Positions 42,755 to 48,005 of a stretch of DNA of 64,000 nucleotides are shown piece after piece (the stretch's first letter is position 1; each line of letters starts with the position of its first letter). The notes under the pieces are model-generated. The model was not told the origin of the DNA. It did no database searches and was given only the letters and a program-made list of their open reading frames with translations. Both the position numbers and the translations under genes were made by a program. Source of the DNA: Lachnospiraceae bacterium (GTDB lineage: Bacteria > Bacillota > Clostridia > Lachnospirales > Lachnospiraceae); NCBI GenBank assembly GCA_014804695.1, contig JAAUZJ010000007.1:53545-117544 (forward strand). Direction: 5' to 3'.

Positions 42755-43387
42755 ATGAATCAAGAAACCTTATTAATTTCAGAAGCAGCGAAGCAGGTAC
42801 AGGTAGAGACGCATGTTCTTAGATACTGGGAAGAGGAATTGCAGCTCCCGATCAAAAGAAATGAAATGGGACATAGGTATTATACAATGGAGGATGTGAA
42901 GCAGTTTAGGGAAATTAAGCTGTTAAAGGAACAAGGGCTGCAATTGAAAGCGATTAGGAGTATTCTGCAAAAAGACGATTTGATTACCAAAACTGAAGAT
43001 AAAGATTCAGAGACAGTCCAAGCGGAGGAGAAAGCAGCAGATTATATGCTTGGTAAGCGGCAGAAATTTATTGTTTCTCTATCGGATGATAATGTTAAAG
43101 AAGAAAAAGCTAAACGCTTACAGTATCTGCTTCAGCATATGATAACGGAAAGTGTAAAAAGCGCAAATAGGGATATGTGTGCCGAGATAAAAGAAAGTGT
43201 CCTAAAAGAGTTAGACTATCAGTTCCGCGCCAGGGATGAGCGTGAGGAAGAGCATTGGAAGAATGAAGAGGAACATTACCGTAAAATTGATGAAATGCTT
43301 AGGCAGCACTATAAAATTAAGGAAAAACCGCCTAAAAAGGAACGCAAAAGAAGAAATAAGAAAGGCTTTATTGGTAATCAGAGTTAA
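42755..43387 (+). CDS. MerR family transcriptional regulator with K/E-rich C-terminal region
   Basis: N-terminal MerR HTH (LISEAAKQVQVETHVLRYWEEELQLPIKRNEMGHRYY). Confidence 0.8.
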   Translation: MNQETLLISEAAKQVQVETHVLRYWEEELQLPIKRNEMGHRYYTMEDVKQFREIKLLKEQGLQLKAIRSILQKDDLITKTEDKDSETVQAEEKAADYMLGKRQKFIVSLSDDNVKEEKAKRLQYLLQHMITESVKSANRDMCAEIKESVLKELDYQFRARDEREEEHWKNEEEHYRKIDEMLRQHYKIKEKPPKKERKRRNKKGFIGNQS

Positions 43388-43407
43388 CAGATTTATACTG
43401 CTATACT

Positions 43408-43448
43408 AAAAAGGCCTTCATCCATTGTTTGTTGGATGAAGACCTTTT
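43408..43448. terminator. Bidirectional terminator (MerR gene on +, ferredoxin gene on -)
   Basis: AAAAAGGCCTTCATCCA-loop-TGGATGAAGACCTTTT, with A/T runs on both sides. Confidence 0.7.
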
Positions 43449-43466
43449 GTAATTATCTGTGGTTAA

Positions 43467-43637
43467 TTATGCCTGAGAAATAGCACCTGTTGGGCATGTT
43501 CCTGCGCAAGAACCACAATCGATACACTTATCAGCATCGATTTCAAATTTGCCATCTCCCATGCTGATAGCTCCTACCGGGCACTGAGCTTCACAAGCAC
43601 CGCATGCTACACAAGCATCGCCAATTACGTATGCCAT
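43467..43637 (-). CDS. fdx: Clostridial-type 2x[4Fe-4S] ferredoxin (56 aa; absent from the ORF track because it is under 60 aa)
   Basis: My manual translation is MAYVIGDACVACGACEAQCPVGAISMGDGKFEIDADKCIDCGSCAGTCPTGAISQA. It has two CxxCxxCxxxCP motifs and an AAGGAGG RBS 8 nt upstream of the ATG. Confidence 0.9.
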   Translation of the reverse strand: MAYVIGDACVACGACEAQCPVGAISMGDGKFEIDADKCIDCGSCAGTCPTGAISQA

Positions 43638-43668
43638 AATCATATCCTCCTTATAGTTGTATAAGCAT

Positions 43669-43688
43669 AGTGATAAAAATTTATCACT
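43669..43688. promoter_or_regulatory. Palindromic operator candidate in the ferredoxin promoter
   Basis: AGTGATAAA-AA-TTTATCACT, with perfect 9-bp arms. It lies just downstream of the predicted -10, so it would overlap the transcription start. Confidence 0.35.
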
Positions 43689-43691
43689 TAT

Positions 43692-43720
43692 ATTCTAATA
43701 TAAAAATGAAGAATATACAA
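43692..43720 (-). promoter_or_regulatory. Sigma-A-type promoter for the ferredoxin gene
   Basis: On the minus strand: TTGTAT, a 17-nt spacer, then TAGAAT. Confidence 0.45.
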
Positions 43721-43722
43721 GC

Positions 43723-43821
43723 TTAATTCTCGTCATCTTTTTTCTTTTTCATCTTAATAAGGTTGCCGATAATAGCGATTCCTGCAACTACTACAAAAGC
43801 GATGGTTACAATTGTTTCCAT
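43723..43821 (-). CDS. Possible 32-aa small membrane protein
   Basis: My manual translation is METIVTIAFVVVAGIAIIGNLIKMKKKKDDEN: one TM helix and a basic/acidic tail. A GGGGAGG RBS lies 9 nt upstream. It sits 63 nt downstream of pflA with no terminator between them. Confidence 0.3.
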   Translation of the reverse strand: METIVTIAFVVVAGIAIIGNLIKMKKKKDDEN

Positions 43822-43884
43822 AATGTATTCTACCTCCCCTGAAATATATTTTTATCTTAACAGAATCCTTGCAGAGCGTGGATT

Positions 43885-44640
43885 CTATTGTTGTTCAGCG
43901 CGGCGTTTACGTATGCCTTCAAGAATTACTTCTTTTTTCTCAAGTAACAGTTTCTTCTCCATTGCGGGAACGCCCTTTAGTTTATATTCAATGCCTAACT
44001 TCTGATACTTATTTTCGCCCATTGTATGATATGGAAGTGCATCTAAGGCTTTCAGGTTTTTAAACTGGCCGATAAAATATCCAAGTTTATACAGATACTC
44101 ATCGTCATCGGTAAGTCCCGGAACAATGACATGGCGGATCCACATATCGACATTTTTTTCATTCAGATATGCGGCAAAAGCAAGGATGCCTTCGTTGGGC
44201 TGGCTGGTAAGTTCCTTATGCTTTTCAGGATCAATGTGCTTGATATCGAGCATAACAAGGTCTGTCAGCGTCATTAATTTATCCAGTTTAGCAAGCCATT
44301 CGGGATTGCCGTTTGGTTTATAAGCGATTCCGGAAGAGTCGATGCAGGTGTGAATTCCTTTTTTCTTGGCAAGTGTAAAAAGGTCAATGAGAAAGTCAAC
44401 CTGCATAAGCGGTTCACCGCCCGTTACAGTGATTCCGCCACCTTTATAGAAACTTACATTCCGCTCATACTGCTCGATTATATATTCCGGCTCCATTAAA
44501 GTACCGCCGTTCATCTCCCATGTATCAGGATTGTGGCAGTAGGCGCATCGCATGGGACAGCCCTGAACGAATACAACAAAGCGGACTCCCGGACCGTCCA
44601 CCGTACCAAAACTTTCTAACGAGTGAATTCTTCCTTGCAT
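43885..44640 (-). CDS. pflA: Pyruvate formate-lyase activating enzyme (radical SAM)
   Basis: GTVDGPGVRFVVFVQGCPMRCAYCHNPDTW (CxxxCxxC cluster) and GGGITVTGGEP. Confidence 0.95.
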   Translation of the reverse strand: MQGRIHSLESFGTVDGPGVRFVVFVQGCPMRCAYCHNPDTWEMNGGTLMEPEYIIEQYERNVSFYKGGGITVTGGEPLMQVDFLIDLFTLAKKKGIHTCIDSSGIAYKPNGNPEWLAKLDKLMTLTDLVMLDIKHIDPEKHKELTSQPNEGILAFAAYLNEKNVDMWIRHVIVPGLTDDDEYLYKLGYFIGQFKNLKALDALPYHTMGENKYQKLGIEYKLKGVPAMEKKLLLEKKEVILEGIRKRRAEQQ

Positions 44641-44803
44641 AGTTTATAGCCTTCTTTCTGTTTATTTTGATTATATTTATGATATTATTTTGTATTAATA
44701 TTTACATTCTATGTAATAAGTATTGTCAAGCTAGATATAGTATACCCTGTCATGGATAAAAAAACCAGTCTTTTATATTATAAATGCAGTTATAAATCAC
44801 ATA

Positions 44804-44845
44804 TAAAAAGCTGCACACCGTTAAACATAACGGATGTGCAGCTCT
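44804..44845 (-). terminator. Rho-independent terminator after the glycyl-radical-domain ORF
   Basis: On the minus strand: AGAGCTGCACAtCCGTTA-loop-TAACGGtGTGCAGCT followed by TTTTTAT. Confidence 0.75.
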
Positions 44846-44883
44846 TAGAATTTCAGTAATTCAATCAGCCATCTTGCGACTAA

Positions 44884-45129
44884 TTAGATACTCTCATGGA
44901 ATGTACGAGAGATAACGTCAGCCTGCTGTTCAGGTGTTAATTTAATGAAATTAACAGCATATCCGGAAACGCGGATTGTAAGCTGAGGATAGTTCTCGGG
45001 ATGTTTCTGAGCGTCTAATAAAGTATCTCTGTTGAGAACGTTTACATTAAGATGATGACCGCCTTTTGTTGCATAACCATCTAATAATGATACCAGGTTA
45101 TCTACCTGAGCTGTGTTTGTTTCTGCCAT
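44884..45129 (-). CDS. Stand-alone glycyl-radical domain protein (GrcA/YfiD-like; equals the missing PFL C-terminus)
   Basis: [81 protein letters not shown]. It contains the RVSGYAV radical-glycine motif and has its own AGGAGG RBS. Confidence 0.88.
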
Positions 45130-45192
45130 TTTAATTTCCTCCTCTAATATTCATATAGTCATAATTCGATAGCATGCGCTAACTTAAGGGTT

Positions 45193-45396
45193 TTAACGAA
45201 AATCATCAAGACCTTGTTCCAGAGTTGGAACACTGCATGCTAATGGTGTTCTGGAACAGTCAGTACATCCCATAGTCTGTACTTCTTTAGAATTATTGGA
45301 TTCGGCATCTACATCGACATTAACATGACCGACACCCTGTGCCATTCCTGAATCCATCATTTTGATAAAATCATCAATCATCTGTTTATCGTCCAT
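45193..45396 (-). CDS. Small Cys-containing ORF inside the PFL split (67 aa from ATG; 70 aa from GTG 45405)
   Basis: MDDKQMIDDFIKMMDSGMAQGVGHVNVDVDAESNNSKEVQTMGCTDCSRTPLACSVPTLEQGLDDFR. An AAAGGTGG RBS lies 5 nt upstream of the ATG. It has weak similarity to the glycyl-radical domain but no RVSGY motif. Confidence 0.55.
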   Translation of the reverse strand: MDDKQMIDDFIKMMDSGMAQGVGHVNVDVDAESNNSKEVQTMGCTDCSRTPLACSVPTLEQGLDDFR

Positions 45397-45420
45397 AACA
45401 ACCACCTTTATCTGTTTTTA

Positions 45421-47460
45421 CTATTTATTTAAGTCTAATTCAATATCACCAGCAAATACCTGATCTTCTTTACCAAGTGCACCAGGGATAATGGTAAATG
45501 TATTAGAAATACCATCCTGAGCATCCTTGAACGGAAGTTTGGATACTGAAGATAAGGAAGCTACTGCACCATGAGTATCACGTCCGTGCATCGGGTTAGC
45601 ACCGGGAGCAAACGGCTGGCCTTTCTTACGTCCGTCAGGTGTATTACCTGTAGCCTTACCATATGTTACATTAGAAGTAATAGTAAGGATAGAAGTTGTA
45701 GGAACACCGTTTCTGTAGGTGTGGTGTCTTCTGATCGCGGTCATGAATTTATGAACGATCTCCTGTGCAATAAGGTCAACACGGTCATCGTCATTACCAT
45801 ATTTCGGGAAGTCGCCTGTTGTCTTGAAGTCAACGATAACGCCGTCTTCATCTCTAATAGGCTCAACCTTTGCATATTTGATTGCTGATAAAGAGTCAGC
45901 TACGATAGACAGACCGGCAACACCTGTTGCGAAGTAACGTTTTACGTCTCTGTCATGAAGAGCCATCTCTGCTCTCTCATAGCAGTATTTATCATGCATA
46001 TAGTGAATGATATTCAAAGTATTTACATATACGTCGGCCTGCCATTCCATCATATCCATGAATTTAGCATATACATCATCATAATCAAGAACATCACCCT
46101 CTACAGGACGATATTTAGGTCCAACCTGTTTCTTGGTAACTTCGTCAACACCGCCGTTTAATGCGTAAAGCAGACATTTAGCGAGGTTTGCACGAGCGCC
46201 GAAGAACTGCATTTCTTTACCGATAACCATAGAAGATACGCAGCATGCGATACCGTAGTCATCGCCATGGGTAACTCTCATAAGGTCGTCGTTCTCATAC
46301 TGGATTGAAGAAGTCTGGATAGACATCTTAGCACAGTATTTCTTCCAGTTCTCAGGAAGTCTGGTAGACCAGAGAACTGTTAAGTTCGGCTCCGGAGAAG
46401 GTCCTAAGTTTGTTAAAGTATGCAGATAACGGAAGCTCATCTTAGATACTAACGGACGTCCGTCAACACCAACACCACCAAGAGATTCGGTTACCCATAC
46501 CGGATCGCCTGCGAAAATCTGGTTGTATTCAGGTGTACGAGCAAATTTGATCAAACGTAATTTCATAATGAAGTGGTCAACGAATTCCTGAATCTGCTCT
46601 TCAGTGAATGTTCCGTTAGCCAAATCTCTTTCTGCATAGCAGTCAAGGAATGTAGAAGTACGTCCAAGAGACATAGCAGCACCGTTCTGCTCTTTAACTG
46701 CGCAAAGATAACCAAAGTAAGTAGCCTGGATAGCTTCCTGTACGTTAGTAGCAGGTTTAGAAATATCGCAGCCATAGGAAGCAGCCATTTCTTTCATGAG
46801 CTTAAGAGCTACCATCTGCTCTGAAAGCTCTTCACGAAGACGGATTACATCGTCTGTCATAACACGTCCTGTAGAATCTTTCTGAGCCTGTTTGTCTTCA
46901 ATAAGATAATCGATACCATACAGAGCAACACGTCTGTAGTCGCCGATGATACGTCCACGTCCATAAGCATCCGGAAGACCTGTGATGATATGTGATGAAC
47001 GGCAAGCTCTCATTTCCTGATTGTAAGCATCGAAGCAGCCTGCATTGTGTGTTTTTCTGTGTGTGGAGAAGAACTCGCTGATCTCAGGGTCAACTTCATA
47101 ACCGTTGTCGGAGCAAGCCTTTTCTGCCATTCTGATACCGCCGTAAGGCTGAAGAGAACGCTTGAAGGGCTTATCTGTCTGGAAACCAACGATTGTTTCT
47201 TTGCTCTTGTCCAGATATCCGGGACCGTGGGATGTAATTGTGGAAATTACCTTAGTATCCATGTCAAGTACACCGCCGGCTTCACGTTCCTGTTTCTGTA
47301 AATCAAGAACCTGTGCCCATAAGTCTTTTGTGTTCTGTGTAGGAGCAGCTAAGAAAGAGTCATCGCCTTCATAAAGGTGATAGTTCCTCTGAATGAAGTC
47401 ACGTACGTTTACTTCATTCTCCCACTTGCCGCCTACAAAATCTTTCCATTCTGGTCTCAT
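45421..47460 (-). CDS. pflB: Pyruvate formate-lyase catalytic body, lacking the C-terminal glycyl-radical domain
   Basis: PFL-like throughout: active-site GIACCVSS (Cys-Cys) and [22 protein letters not shown]. It ends ...[22 protein letters not shown] with no RVSGY motif. An AGGAGG RBS precedes it. Confidence 0.9.
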
Positions 47461-47724
47461 TTTGAATAGCCTCCTGTTTTAATATATTTTTGATATGTTT
47501 AGCATGTCATATAAATTAAGAAAACATGCTTAAAATCCTGTATATTTATTATATTTAAATAATAAGGTTACGTCAAGTCGGGCAATTGTACTTTTTCTCA
47601 TACAAAGCATGAATTTTAATGTAATTTTTTGTGAAAAATGTATGATGTGGCTTGCAGTAATTGTGATTTGCGACTATACTGTATAGCAGAAAACTTACTC
47701 AAACAAAATCGGAGGTATAAAAAT

Positions 47725-47916
47725 ATGGCAGAAATAACGAAAGAGATGACAATTGGAGAGATTTTAAGGACAAACCCTGATGTGGCGCCTATACTTATGA
47801 ATGCGGGTATGCATTGTCTGGGCTGTCCTTCGGCACAGGGCGAATCATTAGAAGAAGCCGCTATGGTGCATGGTATGAATATTGATGATTTAATGGCACA
47901 GATTGAGGCACTGTAG
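47725..47916 (+). CDS. DUF1858 domain protein (hybrid-cluster-protein-associated redox disulfide type)
   Basis: [51 protein letters not shown] prefer the ATG at 47725 with a GGAGG RBS over the track's start at 47638. Confidence 0.8.
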
Positions 47917-47955
47917 AAACAACGTTTGGTATATTTTGCAAACTGTCTTTATGTT

Positions 47956-47990
47956 AAAAAAGGAATCTGAAATTGCTCAGATTCCTTTTT
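47956..47990. terminator. Bidirectional terminator (DUF1858 gene on +, mecA on -)
   Basis: AAAAAAGGAATCTGA-loop-TCAGATTCCTTTTT. Confidence 0.75.
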
Positions 47991-48005
47991 ACGTTCTTAT
48001 GATAT

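What the first reader, a model, noticed from the sequence alone, without database searches (positions are those of the whole stretch)
45193..45396. The intervening 67-aa ORF looks like a shortened, glycine-less paralog of the glycyl-radical domain with three cysteines
By-eye alignment with the downstream radical-domain ORF gives two matching blocks. DDFIKMMDSGMAQGVGHVNVDVDAES aligns with [26 protein letters not shown], sharing D, D, G, H, N-V and V plus conserved hydrophobic positions. Near the C-terminus, VPTLEQGLDDFR aligns with [13 protein letters not shown], sharing T-x-E-Q...D.

The distance between the two blocks is 28 versus 33 residues. The RVSGYAV loop is replaced by MGCTDCSRTPLACSV (C-x2-C-x6-C). 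One reading is a degenerate duplicate of the radical domain. Candidate roles are a decoy, a regulator or chaperone of activation by PflA, a metal-binding or redox-sensing module, or nothing at all. The similarity is weak and I assessed it without statistics.
Basis: inference. Interest (0 to 1): 0.65.

Follow-up and report, generated by a model that had tools for sequence, protein, structure and literature searches.

The report
Third small subunit of split PFL
The 67-residue ORF is a real, strongly conserved gut-Lachnospiraceae protein encoded between the two pieces of a naturally split pyruvate formate-lyase; its front half copies the docking helix and strand of the radical-carrying piece, its back half is an unrelated two-cysteine peptide, and it is probably an undescribed accessory subunit of this central fermentation enzyme.

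Summary
The ORF (45193-45396, minus strand, 67 aa) exists, has a good RBS and lies between a 679-aa PFL body and an 81-aa GrcA3-type glycyl-radical protein.

It is a real gene:
- dN/dS is 0.05.
- It is intact in 33 of 36 other genomes of the genus.
- At least 592 species-level genomes carry it, and 129 clusters at 50% identity match it.

Profile-profile comparison gives E 2e-9 (96% probability) for residues 1-32 against GrcA3 residues 2-34, the helix and beta-10 strand that precede the glycine loop. 57 of 67 diverse members individually hit the GrcA3 model.

The second block and the "loop replacement" are not supported. No similarity is detectable after residue 32. The E-Q match and the first cysteine are clade-specific; only D-C-x5-6-A-C-x-V-P-T-L is family-wide.

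In three genomes without the ORF, a similar cysteine motif sits on the C-terminus of the PFL body. This suggests the cysteine module works on the body and the GrcA3-like half is its docking handle.

The biochemical role is untested; a placeholder or adaptor for exchange of the radical subunit is my best guess. Two AlphaFold runs were inconclusive. I found no published description.

The parts
45421..47460 (-). PFL catalytic body, 679 aa. It ends 11 residues after the canonical ...ALGKEDQV junction and lacks the helix, beta-10 strand and glycine loop.
   Evidence: Pfam PFL-like E 2.8e-218, plus Gly_radical profile positions 1-51 only. TIGR01255 matches model positions 2-665 of 744. It is the only PFL-like gene in the genome.
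45424..45459 (-). Body tail [12 protein letters not shown]. It is specific to split bodies and has an alternating acidic/hydrophobic pattern (G-D-h-x-h-D-L).
   Evidence: Conserved in all split bodies examined and absent from full-length PFLs. In the fused variants a similar cysteine motif follows this tail directly.
45397..45420 (-). 24-nt spacer with the ribosome-binding site AAAGGTGG, 5 nt before the ATG of the small ORF.
   Evidence: Read from the sequence. The spacer length varies from 3 to 163 nt in 54 related loci.
45193..45396 (-). The 67-aa small ORF (the finding), including its stop codon.
   Evidence: dN/dS 0.05. Conserved synteny.
45301..45396 (-). Residues 1-32, the GrcA3-like docking module (helix plus beta-10-type strand GHVNVDV).
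   Evidence: hhalign E 2e-9 to GrcA3 residues 2-34. dN/dS 0.037. D15, H24, N26 and V29 match invariant D17, H26, N28 and V31 of GrcA3/PFL.
45274..45300 (-). Residues 33-41, a variable acidic linker.
   Evidence: dN/dS 0.21. Length-variable, with in-frame insertions in relatives.
45196..45273 (-). Residues 42-67, the cysteine module. Family-wide core: D-C-x5-6-A-C-x-[VI]-P-[TN]-L-x-x-G-[LI]-D.
   Evidence: C54 and P57 are invariant and C47 occurs in 62 of 67 members. dN/dS 0.037. No similarity to the glycine loop. A similar motif is fused to the PFL body in G049, G115 and G233.
44884..45129 (-). GrcA3-type autonomous glycyl-radical protein, 81 aa, with the RVSGYAV motif and its own strong RBS (AGAGGAGG).
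   Evidence: NCBIfam NF038360 scores 161.2 bits against a cut-off of 158. Pfam Gly_radical profile positions 49-106, E 1.6e-23.
44806..44846 (-). Intrinsic-terminator hairpin with a U-run after grcA3, closing the body-small ORF-grcA3 transcription unit.
   Evidence: RNA fold -34.4 kcal/mol, z -6.2.
43885..44640 (-). PFL-activating enzyme PflA, 251 aa, a radical SAM enzyme without a SPASM domain.
   Evidence: Pfam Radical_SAM and Fer4_12. Promoter-like site at 44698-44670.
47548..47576 (-). Near-consensus promoter (TTGACG-17-TATAAT) upstream of the PFL body gene.
   Evidence: Consensus scan, 11 of 12 matches. This is a pattern match only.

Best explanation
The ORF encodes a third, small component of a naturally split pyruvate formate-lyase.

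**Shown.**
- It is a translated-type gene under strong purifying selection.
- It is almost always encoded between the truncated PFL body and the separate GrcA3 radical protein.
- Its residues 1-32 are a paralog of the helix and beta-10 strand with which GrcA3, or the C-terminal domain of an unsplit PFL, begins.
- Its residues 42-67 are an unrelated, equally conserved peptide with two cysteines.
- A variable linker joins the two halves.

**Inferred.**
- The N-terminal module docks on the PFL body at or beside the socket that receives the GrcA3 strand. The positions invariant in PFL/GrcA3 (Asp, His, Asn, Val) are the ones conserved here.
- This docking places the cysteine peptide near the opening for the glycyl-radical loop.
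- In lineages where a similar cysteine peptide is fused to the C-terminus of the body, the docking module has become dispensable.

**Guess at function.**
- It may be a placeholder or adaptor that occupies or organises the radical-domain socket of the body. It would then assist loading, activation or replacement of the oxygen-labile GrcA3 'cartridge'.
- This would resemble residues 696-733 of oxygen-cleaved E. coli PFL, which promote YfiD binding.
- The cysteine pair may act as a redox-sensitive or thiol-donating element.
For: **Real gene.**
- 1665 database relatives, nearly all about 67 aa.
- Intact in 33 of 36 other genomes of the genus.
- dN/dS 0.05, with 0.037 in both modules and 0.21 in the linker.
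- 129 clusters at 50% identity match it, and at least 592 species-level genomes carry it.
- Metatranscriptome contigs of relatives cover the ORF and join its stop to the grcA3 start.

**Partner of split PFL.**
- 23 of 26 genomes with GrcA3 have the ORF directly upstream of grcA3.
- The order body, small ORF, grcA3 holds in all 54 loci that contain the three genes and in a distant member.
- The split body is the only PFL-like gene in this genome.

**Homology of the front half.**
- hhalign E 2e-9, with controls.
- 57 of 67 members hit GrcA3.
- The family HMM finds GrcA3 N-termini genome-wide.
- 7 of 67 members hit Pfam Gly_radical.

**Rosetta-stone fusions.**
- G049, G115 and G233 lack the ORF, and their PFL bodies end in ...GDLDIDL...C-x5-6-C-x-L-P-N-[VI] or DCLCCEPNI. 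P0323 is similar.
- In a tree, split bodies form one clade (support 0.993), with the fused form nested inside it (0.994).

**Literature.** In E. coli, truncated PFL(1-695) plus YfiD is active once the radical is installed, but it binds YfiD and is activated less well than cleaved PFL, which retains residues 696-733 (PMC8683613).
Against: - No experiment exists, and there is no direct evidence of binding.
- With the alignment bias removed, AlphaFold2 modelled only the N-terminal helix with moderate confidence (pLDDT 56-78). The strand and the cysteine module were left disordered (pLDDT below 30).
- In the first run the confident placement of the helix and strand (pLDDT about 75) arose because MAFFT aligned full-length PFL helix/beta-10 onto the small ORF. 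That run is not independent support.
- The homology covers only 33 columns.
- Two conserved cysteines are too few for an Fe-S cluster, and the cysteine module has no recognisable relative.
- A paralogous small-protein family with a similar N-terminus lies elsewhere in the genome with no glycyl-radical enzyme beside it. The module is therefore not strictly tied to PFL.
- The RNA evidence comes from assembled contigs of mixed relatives.
Confidence: 0.55

Rival explanations
1. Competitive decoy or negative regulator. The GrcA3-like module occupies the same socket as GrcA3 and keeps the body inactive. This might protect the active-site cysteines when oxygen or redox conditions are unfavourable, with the cysteine pair acting as the switch.
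For: The front half is homologous to the docking segment of GrcA3. It has no radical glycine. Two cysteines are conserved.
Against: It is co-transcribed in one unit with the two genes it would inhibit, and no terminator lies between them. In the fused variants the cysteine peptide is permanently attached to the body, which fits a constitutive part better than an inhibitor. The split PFL is the only PFL in the genome.
Confidence: 0.15
2. Activation adaptor directed at PflA. The protein presents or releases GrcA3 to the activating enzyme, or stabilises free GrcA3 by pairing with its helix and strand. It would not bind the body.
For: In E. coli the disordered N-terminus of YfiD improves radical installation by PFL-AE (PMC13450708; PMC8683613). 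GrcA3 has no such long N-terminus (81 aa). pflA lies next to the operon.
Against: The fusions of the cysteine motif are to the body, not to PflA or GrcA3. pflA is not adjacent in at least one distant relative.
Confidence: 0.15
3. An independent small redox, metal-binding or peptide-precursor protein (a RiPP-like substrate of a radical SAM enzyme). It would merely share an operon with PFL.
For: It has an acidic N-terminal 'leader-like' half and a cysteine-containing C-terminal half. One member gives a chance-level hit to a radical-SAM-modified peptide family (E 0.036). A paralogous family occurs away from any glycyl-radical enzyme.
Against: The locus has no dedicated maturase, protease or exporter; PflA is a plain 251-aa activase. 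The cysteine half is as conserved as the front half, unlike RiPP cores. A similar motif occurs as the C-terminal tail of a protein of about 700 aa. Only two cysteines are conserved.
Confidence: 0.08
4. A decaying duplicate of the radical domain with no function, that is, an insertion remnant.
For: In this window all three ORFs happen to lie in one reading frame. Part of the ORF resembles the downstream gene.
Against: dN/dS is 0.05 with saturated synonymous change. Hundreds of species keep the frame intact. The shared frame is found in only 3 of 54 related loci, no more than chance.
Confidence: 0.02

Closest known systems
Autonomous glycyl radical cofactors: E. coli YfiD/GrcA, phage T4 Y06I, NCBIfam GrcA2 and GrcA3 (NF038360)
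   Same: A small protein encoded with PFL. Residues 1-32 are homologous to the helix and beta-10-type strand with which GrcA3 begins (hhalign E 2e-9).
   Different: It has no RVSGYAV glycine loop and no C-terminal helix. It scores 12.9 bits against a cut-off of 158. It carries a two-cysteine peptide instead, so it cannot carry the radical in the known way.
Residues about 696-733 of oxygen-cleaved E. coli PFL (the retained beta-10 and helix, 'recognition element' for YfiD; Andorfer et al. 2021, PMC8683613)
   Same: A glycine-less copy of the beta-10 region present alongside an incoming radical-bearing spare part. This suggests a comparable role in receiving GrcA3.
   Different: Here it is a separate, genetically encoded polypeptide with an added cysteine module, not a damage product. 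Its role is untested.
Small accessory subunits of other glycyl radical enzymes (benzylsuccinate synthase beta and gamma, 4-hydroxyphenylacetate decarboxylase small subunit). This comparison rests on my own knowledge of these families.
   Same: Short cysteine-containing proteins encoded next to the catalytic subunit. They bind it and influence the glycyl-radical domain.
   Different: Those subunits bind [4Fe-4S] clusters through four ligands. This family conserves only two cysteines, shows no sequence similarity to them, and belongs to the formate-lyase class, for which no accessory subunit is described.
Engineered E. coli tPFL(1-695) plus YfiD
   Same: A PFL body lacking beta-10 and the glycine loop, complemented in trans by a small radical protein. 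The natural operon here has the same two-piece logic.
   Different: The natural system has a conserved body tail (GD-h-x-h-DL) and a third protein. The engineered pair binds YfiD and is activated poorly.

Membership tests
Gly_radical domain (PF01228) / autonomous glycyl radical cofactor GrcA-GrcA3 (NF038360) | Radical glycine within the R-V-S-G-Y-A-V loop | tested here: not met
   The sequence and the 67-member family have no such motif. Profile alignment does not reach that region.
Gly_radical domain (PF01228) / autonomous glycyl radical cofactor GrcA-GrcA3 (NF038360) | Score above the curated family cut-off | tested here: not met
   NF038360 scores 12.9 bits against 158, E 0.086. The window protein gives no Pfam hit. 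7 of 67 members give weak Gly_radical hits.
Gly_radical domain (PF01228) / autonomous glycyl radical cofactor GrcA-GrcA3 (NF038360) | Helix plus beta-10-type strand (L-D-G-Y...G-H-H-L-N-V-N-V) preceding the glycine loop | tested here: met
   hhalign E 2e-9, probability 96%, residues 1-32 against 2-34. Controls. 57 of 67 members hit GrcA3.
Gly_radical domain (PF01228) / autonomous glycyl radical cofactor GrcA-GrcA3 (NF038360) | Substrate of the PFL-activating enzyme | not testable with these tools
   Needs EPR or an activity assay.
Fe-S-binding small subunits of glycyl radical enzymes (BSS beta/gamma, HPAD small subunit) | Four conserved Cys/His ligands for a [4Fe-4S] cluster | tested here: not met
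   Only C47 and C54 are conserved family-wide. 34 of 67 members have exactly two cysteines.
Fe-S-binding small subunits of glycyl radical enzymes (BSS beta/gamma, HPAD small subunit) | Encoded next to, and physically associated with, the catalytic subunit | tested here: inconclusive
   Adjacency is met, and fusion of a similar cysteine motif to the body points to association. Binding itself is untested, and AlphaFold was inconclusive.
Radical-SAM-modified peptide precursors (RiPPs) | Dedicated maturase (for example a SPASM-domain radical SAM enzyme), protease or exporter in the locus, and a core more variable than the leader | tested here: not met
   The only radical SAM gene is a 251-aa PflA. 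The cysteine module has dN/dS 0.037, equal to the front half.

The most novel reading that the evidence does not exclude
Gut Lachnospiraceae may run PFL as a three-part 'cartridge' enzyme. A long-lived catalytic body is served by a disposable radical subunit, GrcA3, for which this genome keeps a second, unlinked copy. The 67-aa protein would be the dedicated gatekeeper. It would sit in the radical-domain socket through its GrcA3-like handle. Its cysteine pair would protect or reset the active site and control ejection of oxygen-cleaved GrcA3 and entry of fresh, activated GrcA3. That would be a built-in repair cycle for a glycyl radical enzyme, with a new class of accessory subunit.
Probability: 0.25. 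Interest if true: 0.8.

Novelty: new variant of a known kind. Interest (0 to 1): 0.62.

Why it matters
**Biological weight.**
- PFL is the central pyruvate-cleaving enzyme of many gut fermenters, and its glycyl radical is destroyed by oxygen.
- The field knows one repair device, the spare-part protein YfiD/GrcA. A 2026 review of glycyl radical enzymes describes only that device and no accessory subunit for formate lyases (PMC13450708).

**What is new here.**
- Hundreds of gut Lachnospiraceae species encode PFL permanently in pieces, with an extra conserved protein that no database names. Sources call it 'hypothetical protein', and Pfam and NCBIfam have no family for it.
- No paper in the searched library mentions 'GrcA3'. 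None combines 'autonomous glycyl radical cofactor' with Lachnospiraceae.

**What it would make testable.**
- If the protein organises loading or exchange of the radical subunit, it would explain how a split glycyl radical enzyme assembles.
- It would offer a natural system for an open question from the E. coli work: why the retained beta-10 region is needed for spare-part binding.
- It would give a handle on oxygen tolerance of abundant gut anaerobes.
- Cultured carriers appear to exist among the hits, for example 'Bacterium 1xD42-87' and Lachnospiraceae isolate B79_4_CH_BP.

Tried and rejected
- **Pairwise and single-sequence searches.** BLASTP of the ORF against GrcA3 found no alignment at E up to 100. 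Pfam on the single protein found nothing. The homology only appears with profiles.
- **Solved structures.** A profile search of PDB sequences gave only chance hits and no PFL.
- **RNA elements.** Rfam on 43500-48000 gave no intron, riboswitch or recoding element.
- **Read-through, recoding or an 'exactly in-frame insert'.** The three ORFs share a frame in this window. In relatives only 3 of 54 loci do, and the spacers vary from 3 to 163 nt and from 14 to 690 nt. Each ORF has its own RBS. Rejected as coincidence.
- **AlphaFold2, run 1.** Input was the stop-read-through chain body + small ORF + GrcA3. The small ORF helix and strand had pLDDT about 75 and the GrcA3 helix and strand below 30. MAFFT had aligned full-length PFL helix/beta-10 onto the small ORF, so the result is biased.
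- **AlphaFold2, run 2.** Input was body + small ORF, with the PFL rows cut at ALGK. Only the helix was modelled, and the strand and cysteine module had pLDDT below 30. Inconclusive. No coordinates were available to inspect contacts.
- **Alignment failures.** A first mixed MAFFT alignment that included free small-ORF rows misplaced them and was discarded. The search for related loci with the diverse alignment A1 failed for lack of a conserved stretch, so I repeated it with the closer set A3.
- **Sequencing runs.** No run holds this exact organism well (share of words at most 0.28). The RNA evidence therefore comes from relatives only.
- **Considered and rejected.**
  - Fe-S small subunit: too few cysteines.
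  - RiPP precursor: no maturase, a conserved core, and the motif fused to a protein of about 700 aa.
  - Pseudogene: dN/dS 0.05.

Full report
**1. What is at the locus.**
- On the minus strand the window encodes, in order:
  - a 679-aa PFL body (45421-47460);
  - the 67-aa ORF (45193-45396);
  - an 81-aa protein with the RVSGYAV glycyl-radical motif (44884-45129);
  - after a strong terminator hairpin (44806-44846; -34.4 kcal/mol, z -6.2), the activating enzyme PflA (43885-44640).
- Pfam places Gly_radical profile positions 1-51 in the body and 49-106 in the 81-aa protein.
- NCBIfam identifies the 81-aa protein as GrcA3 (NF038360, 161 bits against a cut-off of 158).
- PFL is therefore naturally split just before the helix and beta-10 strand that precede the glycine loop.
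- Each ORF has its own Shine-Dalgarno sequence.
- A near-consensus promoter precedes the body gene.
- This body is the only PFL-like gene in the 93%-complete genome, so the split enzyme should be the working PFL.

**2. The ORF is a real gene.**
- It has 1665 database relatives, almost all about 67 aa, named 'hypothetical protein' in Lachnospiraceae-type gut MAGs.
- It is intact in 33 of 36 other genomes of the genus.
- 129 clusters at 50% identity match it in a library of 1.8 billion representatives.
- A narrow peptide pattern alone finds at least 592 species-level genomes.
- Among eight genus members dN/dS is 0.050: 0.037 for residues 1-29, 0.21 for the linker and 0.037 for residues 42-67. 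Synonymous change is saturated (dS about 1.2-1.4). GrcA3 has 0.016 and the body C-terminus 0.022.
- Metatranscriptome contigs of relatives cover the ORF and join its stop to the grcA3 start. This is indirect, because the contigs are assembled from mixed organisms.

**3.
- Pairwise BLASTP sees nothing.
- I aligned 67 diverse homologs (A1).
  - 57 of the 67 individually hit the GrcA3 model (best E 1.5e-6). No other NCBIfam family is hit by more than two members.
  - 7 of the 67 hit Pfam Gly_radical.
- hhalign of A1 against 19 GrcA3 and PFL C-termini (A2) gives probability 96.3% and E 2e-9. The alignment covers ORF residues 1-32 and GrcA3 residues 2-34.
- The result holds against GrcA3 alone (1.5e-9) and against unsplit PFLs alone (3.7e-8). 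It vanishes with a reversed profile (0.47).
- A whole-genome six-frame search with the A1 model finds three kinds of target: the ORF itself, the N-terminus of the neighbouring GrcA3 (E 1e-6 to 2e-3 per genome) and one weak paralog.
- Positions invariant in PFL/GrcA3 (Asp17, His26, Asn28, Val31) coincide with the conserved Asp15, His24, Asn26 and Val29 of the small protein.
- Block 1 is therefore genuine homology to the helix and beta-10 strand. In E. coli this region lies within PFL residues 693-759, which have the same fold as YfiD residues 61-127 (PMC8683613).

**4. What is not homologous.**
- Beyond residue 32 nothing aligns. Alternative alignments have probability 0.1%, and a forced global alignment lowers the score from 49.8 to 37.7.
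- The T-x-E-Q match of block 2 is confined to this clade. Family positions 60 and 61 are mostly H/F and E/Q/K.
- The linker varies in length, with in-frame insertions in relatives.
- The first cysteine of 'C-x2-C-x6-C' is present in only 24 of 67 members.
- The family-wide core is D-C-x5-6-A-C-x-[VI]-P-[TN]-L-x-x-G-[LI]-D, with Cys54 and Pro57 invariant.
- The protein is thus a chimera and not a shortened whole radical domain.

**5. Context and evolution.**
- Split PFL with GrcA3 occurs in 24 of 201 sampled genomes of the order, across several families. The other genomes with a hit mostly carry unsplit PFLs of about 745-790 aa.
- 23 of 26 genomes with GrcA3 have the small ORF immediately upstream of grcA3.
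- The order body, small ORF, grcA3 holds in all 54 fetched loci that contain the three genes and in a distant member.
- The three exceptions (G049, G115, G233) have no small ORF. Their PFL bodies end in ...GDLDIDLDLFNGDPNCDLSKPCALPNVTIED...GDLDIDLFSDGTSSCDNNMPCSLPNIDLD or ...SDIVIDLNDDCLCCEPNIEIPE. A similar cysteine motif is thus fused to the body tail (a similar tail is in P0323).
- In a tree of body sequences the split bodies form one clade (SH-like support 0.993), separate from unsplit PFLs of the same taxonomic family. The fused form is nested inside that clade (0.994). This points to a single origin of the split and a secondary fusion.
- All split bodies carry a conserved tail (here [12 protein letters not shown]) that unsplit PFLs lack.
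- The shared reading frame of the three ORFs in this window is coincidence. Only 3 of 54 related loci share it, and the spacers vary widely.

**6. Mechanism.**
- *Shown:* a conserved small protein with a GrcA3-type N-terminal module and a two-cysteine C-terminal module, genetically tied to split PFL. In some lineages a similar cysteine motif is covalently joined to the body.
- *Inferred:* the N-terminal module docks on the body where, or next to where, the GrcA3 helix and strand bind. It thereby tethers the cysteine peptide near the radical-domain socket. When the peptide is fused to the body, the handle is no longer needed.
- *Guess:* the protein is a placeholder or adaptor that keeps the truncated body competent and assists loading, activation or replacement of the oxygen-labile GrcA3.
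- Two observations make this attractive.
  - In E. coli, truncated PFL(1-695) is active with YfiD once the radical is installed. However, it binds YfiD and is activated less well than oxygen-cleaved PFL, which retains residues 696-733 (PMC8683613).
  - This genome keeps a second, unlinked grcA3 copy (L012 5543-5788), as expected if GrcA3 is a consumable.
- Decoy or regulator, PflA-directed adaptor and independent redox-peptide readings remain possible.

**7. Structure prediction was inconclusive.**
- Run 1 used a read-through chain of all three proteins. It gave the small ORF helix and strand pLDDT about 75 and the GrcA3 helix and strand below 30. MAFFT had aligned unsplit PFL helix/beta-10 onto the small ORF, so this mainly reflects the alignment.
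- Run 2 used body plus small ORF with the PFL rows truncated. Only the helix was modelled (pLDDT 56-78), and the strand and cysteine module stayed below 30.
- The cysteine module was disordered in both runs.

**8. Comparison with what is known, and novelty.**
- The closest known proteins are the autonomous glycyl radical cofactors (YfiD/GrcA, T4 Y06I, GrcA3).
- The ORF fails their defining features, because it has no radical glycine and scores far below the cut-off. It is a partial paralog and not a member.
- In function it resembles the retained beta-10 region of cleaved PFL. More loosely, it resembles the small cysteine-bearing subunits of benzylsuccinate synthase and 4-hydroxyphenylacetate decarboxylase. 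It shares neither their sequence nor their four cluster ligands.
- No paper in the searched library mentions GrcA3, a split PFL in Lachnospiraceae or this protein. A 2026 review of glycyl radical enzymes lists only YfiD-type spare parts for formate lyases.
- Earlier notes of this scan on other genomes reached the same reading. They are not independent evidence.
- I rate it a new variant of a known kind: an undescribed accessory component of a glycyl radical enzyme.

Noticed in passing
L012:5543-5788 (G000 contig C5, outside the window): There is a second grcA3 gene, 81 aa, nearly identical to the operon copy ([12 protein letters not shown]...HEQI). It stands alone, with no PFL body or small ORF nearby, between a RelA/SpoT-like gene and a lipase-like gene. 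This would fit GrcA3 being a consumable spare part.
   Followed up: partly
L009:4397-4618 (G000 contig C51, outside the window): A distant paralog of the small ORF, about 73 aa (MI-EEIM-HLD-ES-QGVYRMSV...CCNMYGRPASETVGLLDMYTDMNAG). It is highly conserved in 21 genus genomes. hhalign against the small-ORF family gives E 1.8e-6; against GrcA3 it gives only 0.037. In this genome it follows a class II aldolase and an MtnA-like isomerase, with no glycyl radical enzyme beside it. Function unknown.
   Followed up: partly
45424-45459: All split PFL bodies carry a conserved tail ([12 protein letters not shown]; pattern G-D-h-x-h-D-L) that unsplit PFLs lack. Its alternating pattern resembles the beta-10 strands GHVNVDV and HHLNVNV, so the locus may hold three beta-10-like segments. 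This similarity was not tested statistically.
   Followed up: partly
44884-47460: In this window the three ORFs lie in one reading frame, interrupted by five stop codons. Relatives show this is coincidence: 3 of 54 loci share the frame and the spacer lengths vary.
   Followed up: yes
L011:3604-3903 (G002): One genus member has an insertion of about 18 residues in the linker of the small ORF (99-aa open frame). Other relatives carry linker insertions of up to about 55 residues. The two modules tolerate variable spacing.
   Followed up: no
42755-43643 and L140:1096-2014: A MerR-family regulator gene and a 2x[4Fe-4S] ferredoxin gene of about 57 aa lie just beyond pflA in the window. In a distant relative the same pair follows grcA3 directly, without pflA between them. 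This may be a conserved neighbourhood.
   Followed up: no
47638-47916: A 92-aa ORF with a C-x2-C motif ([18 protein letters not shown]) is divergently placed upstream of the PFL body promoter. It looks like a DUF1858-type redox-disulfide domain, judged by eye only.
   Followed up: no
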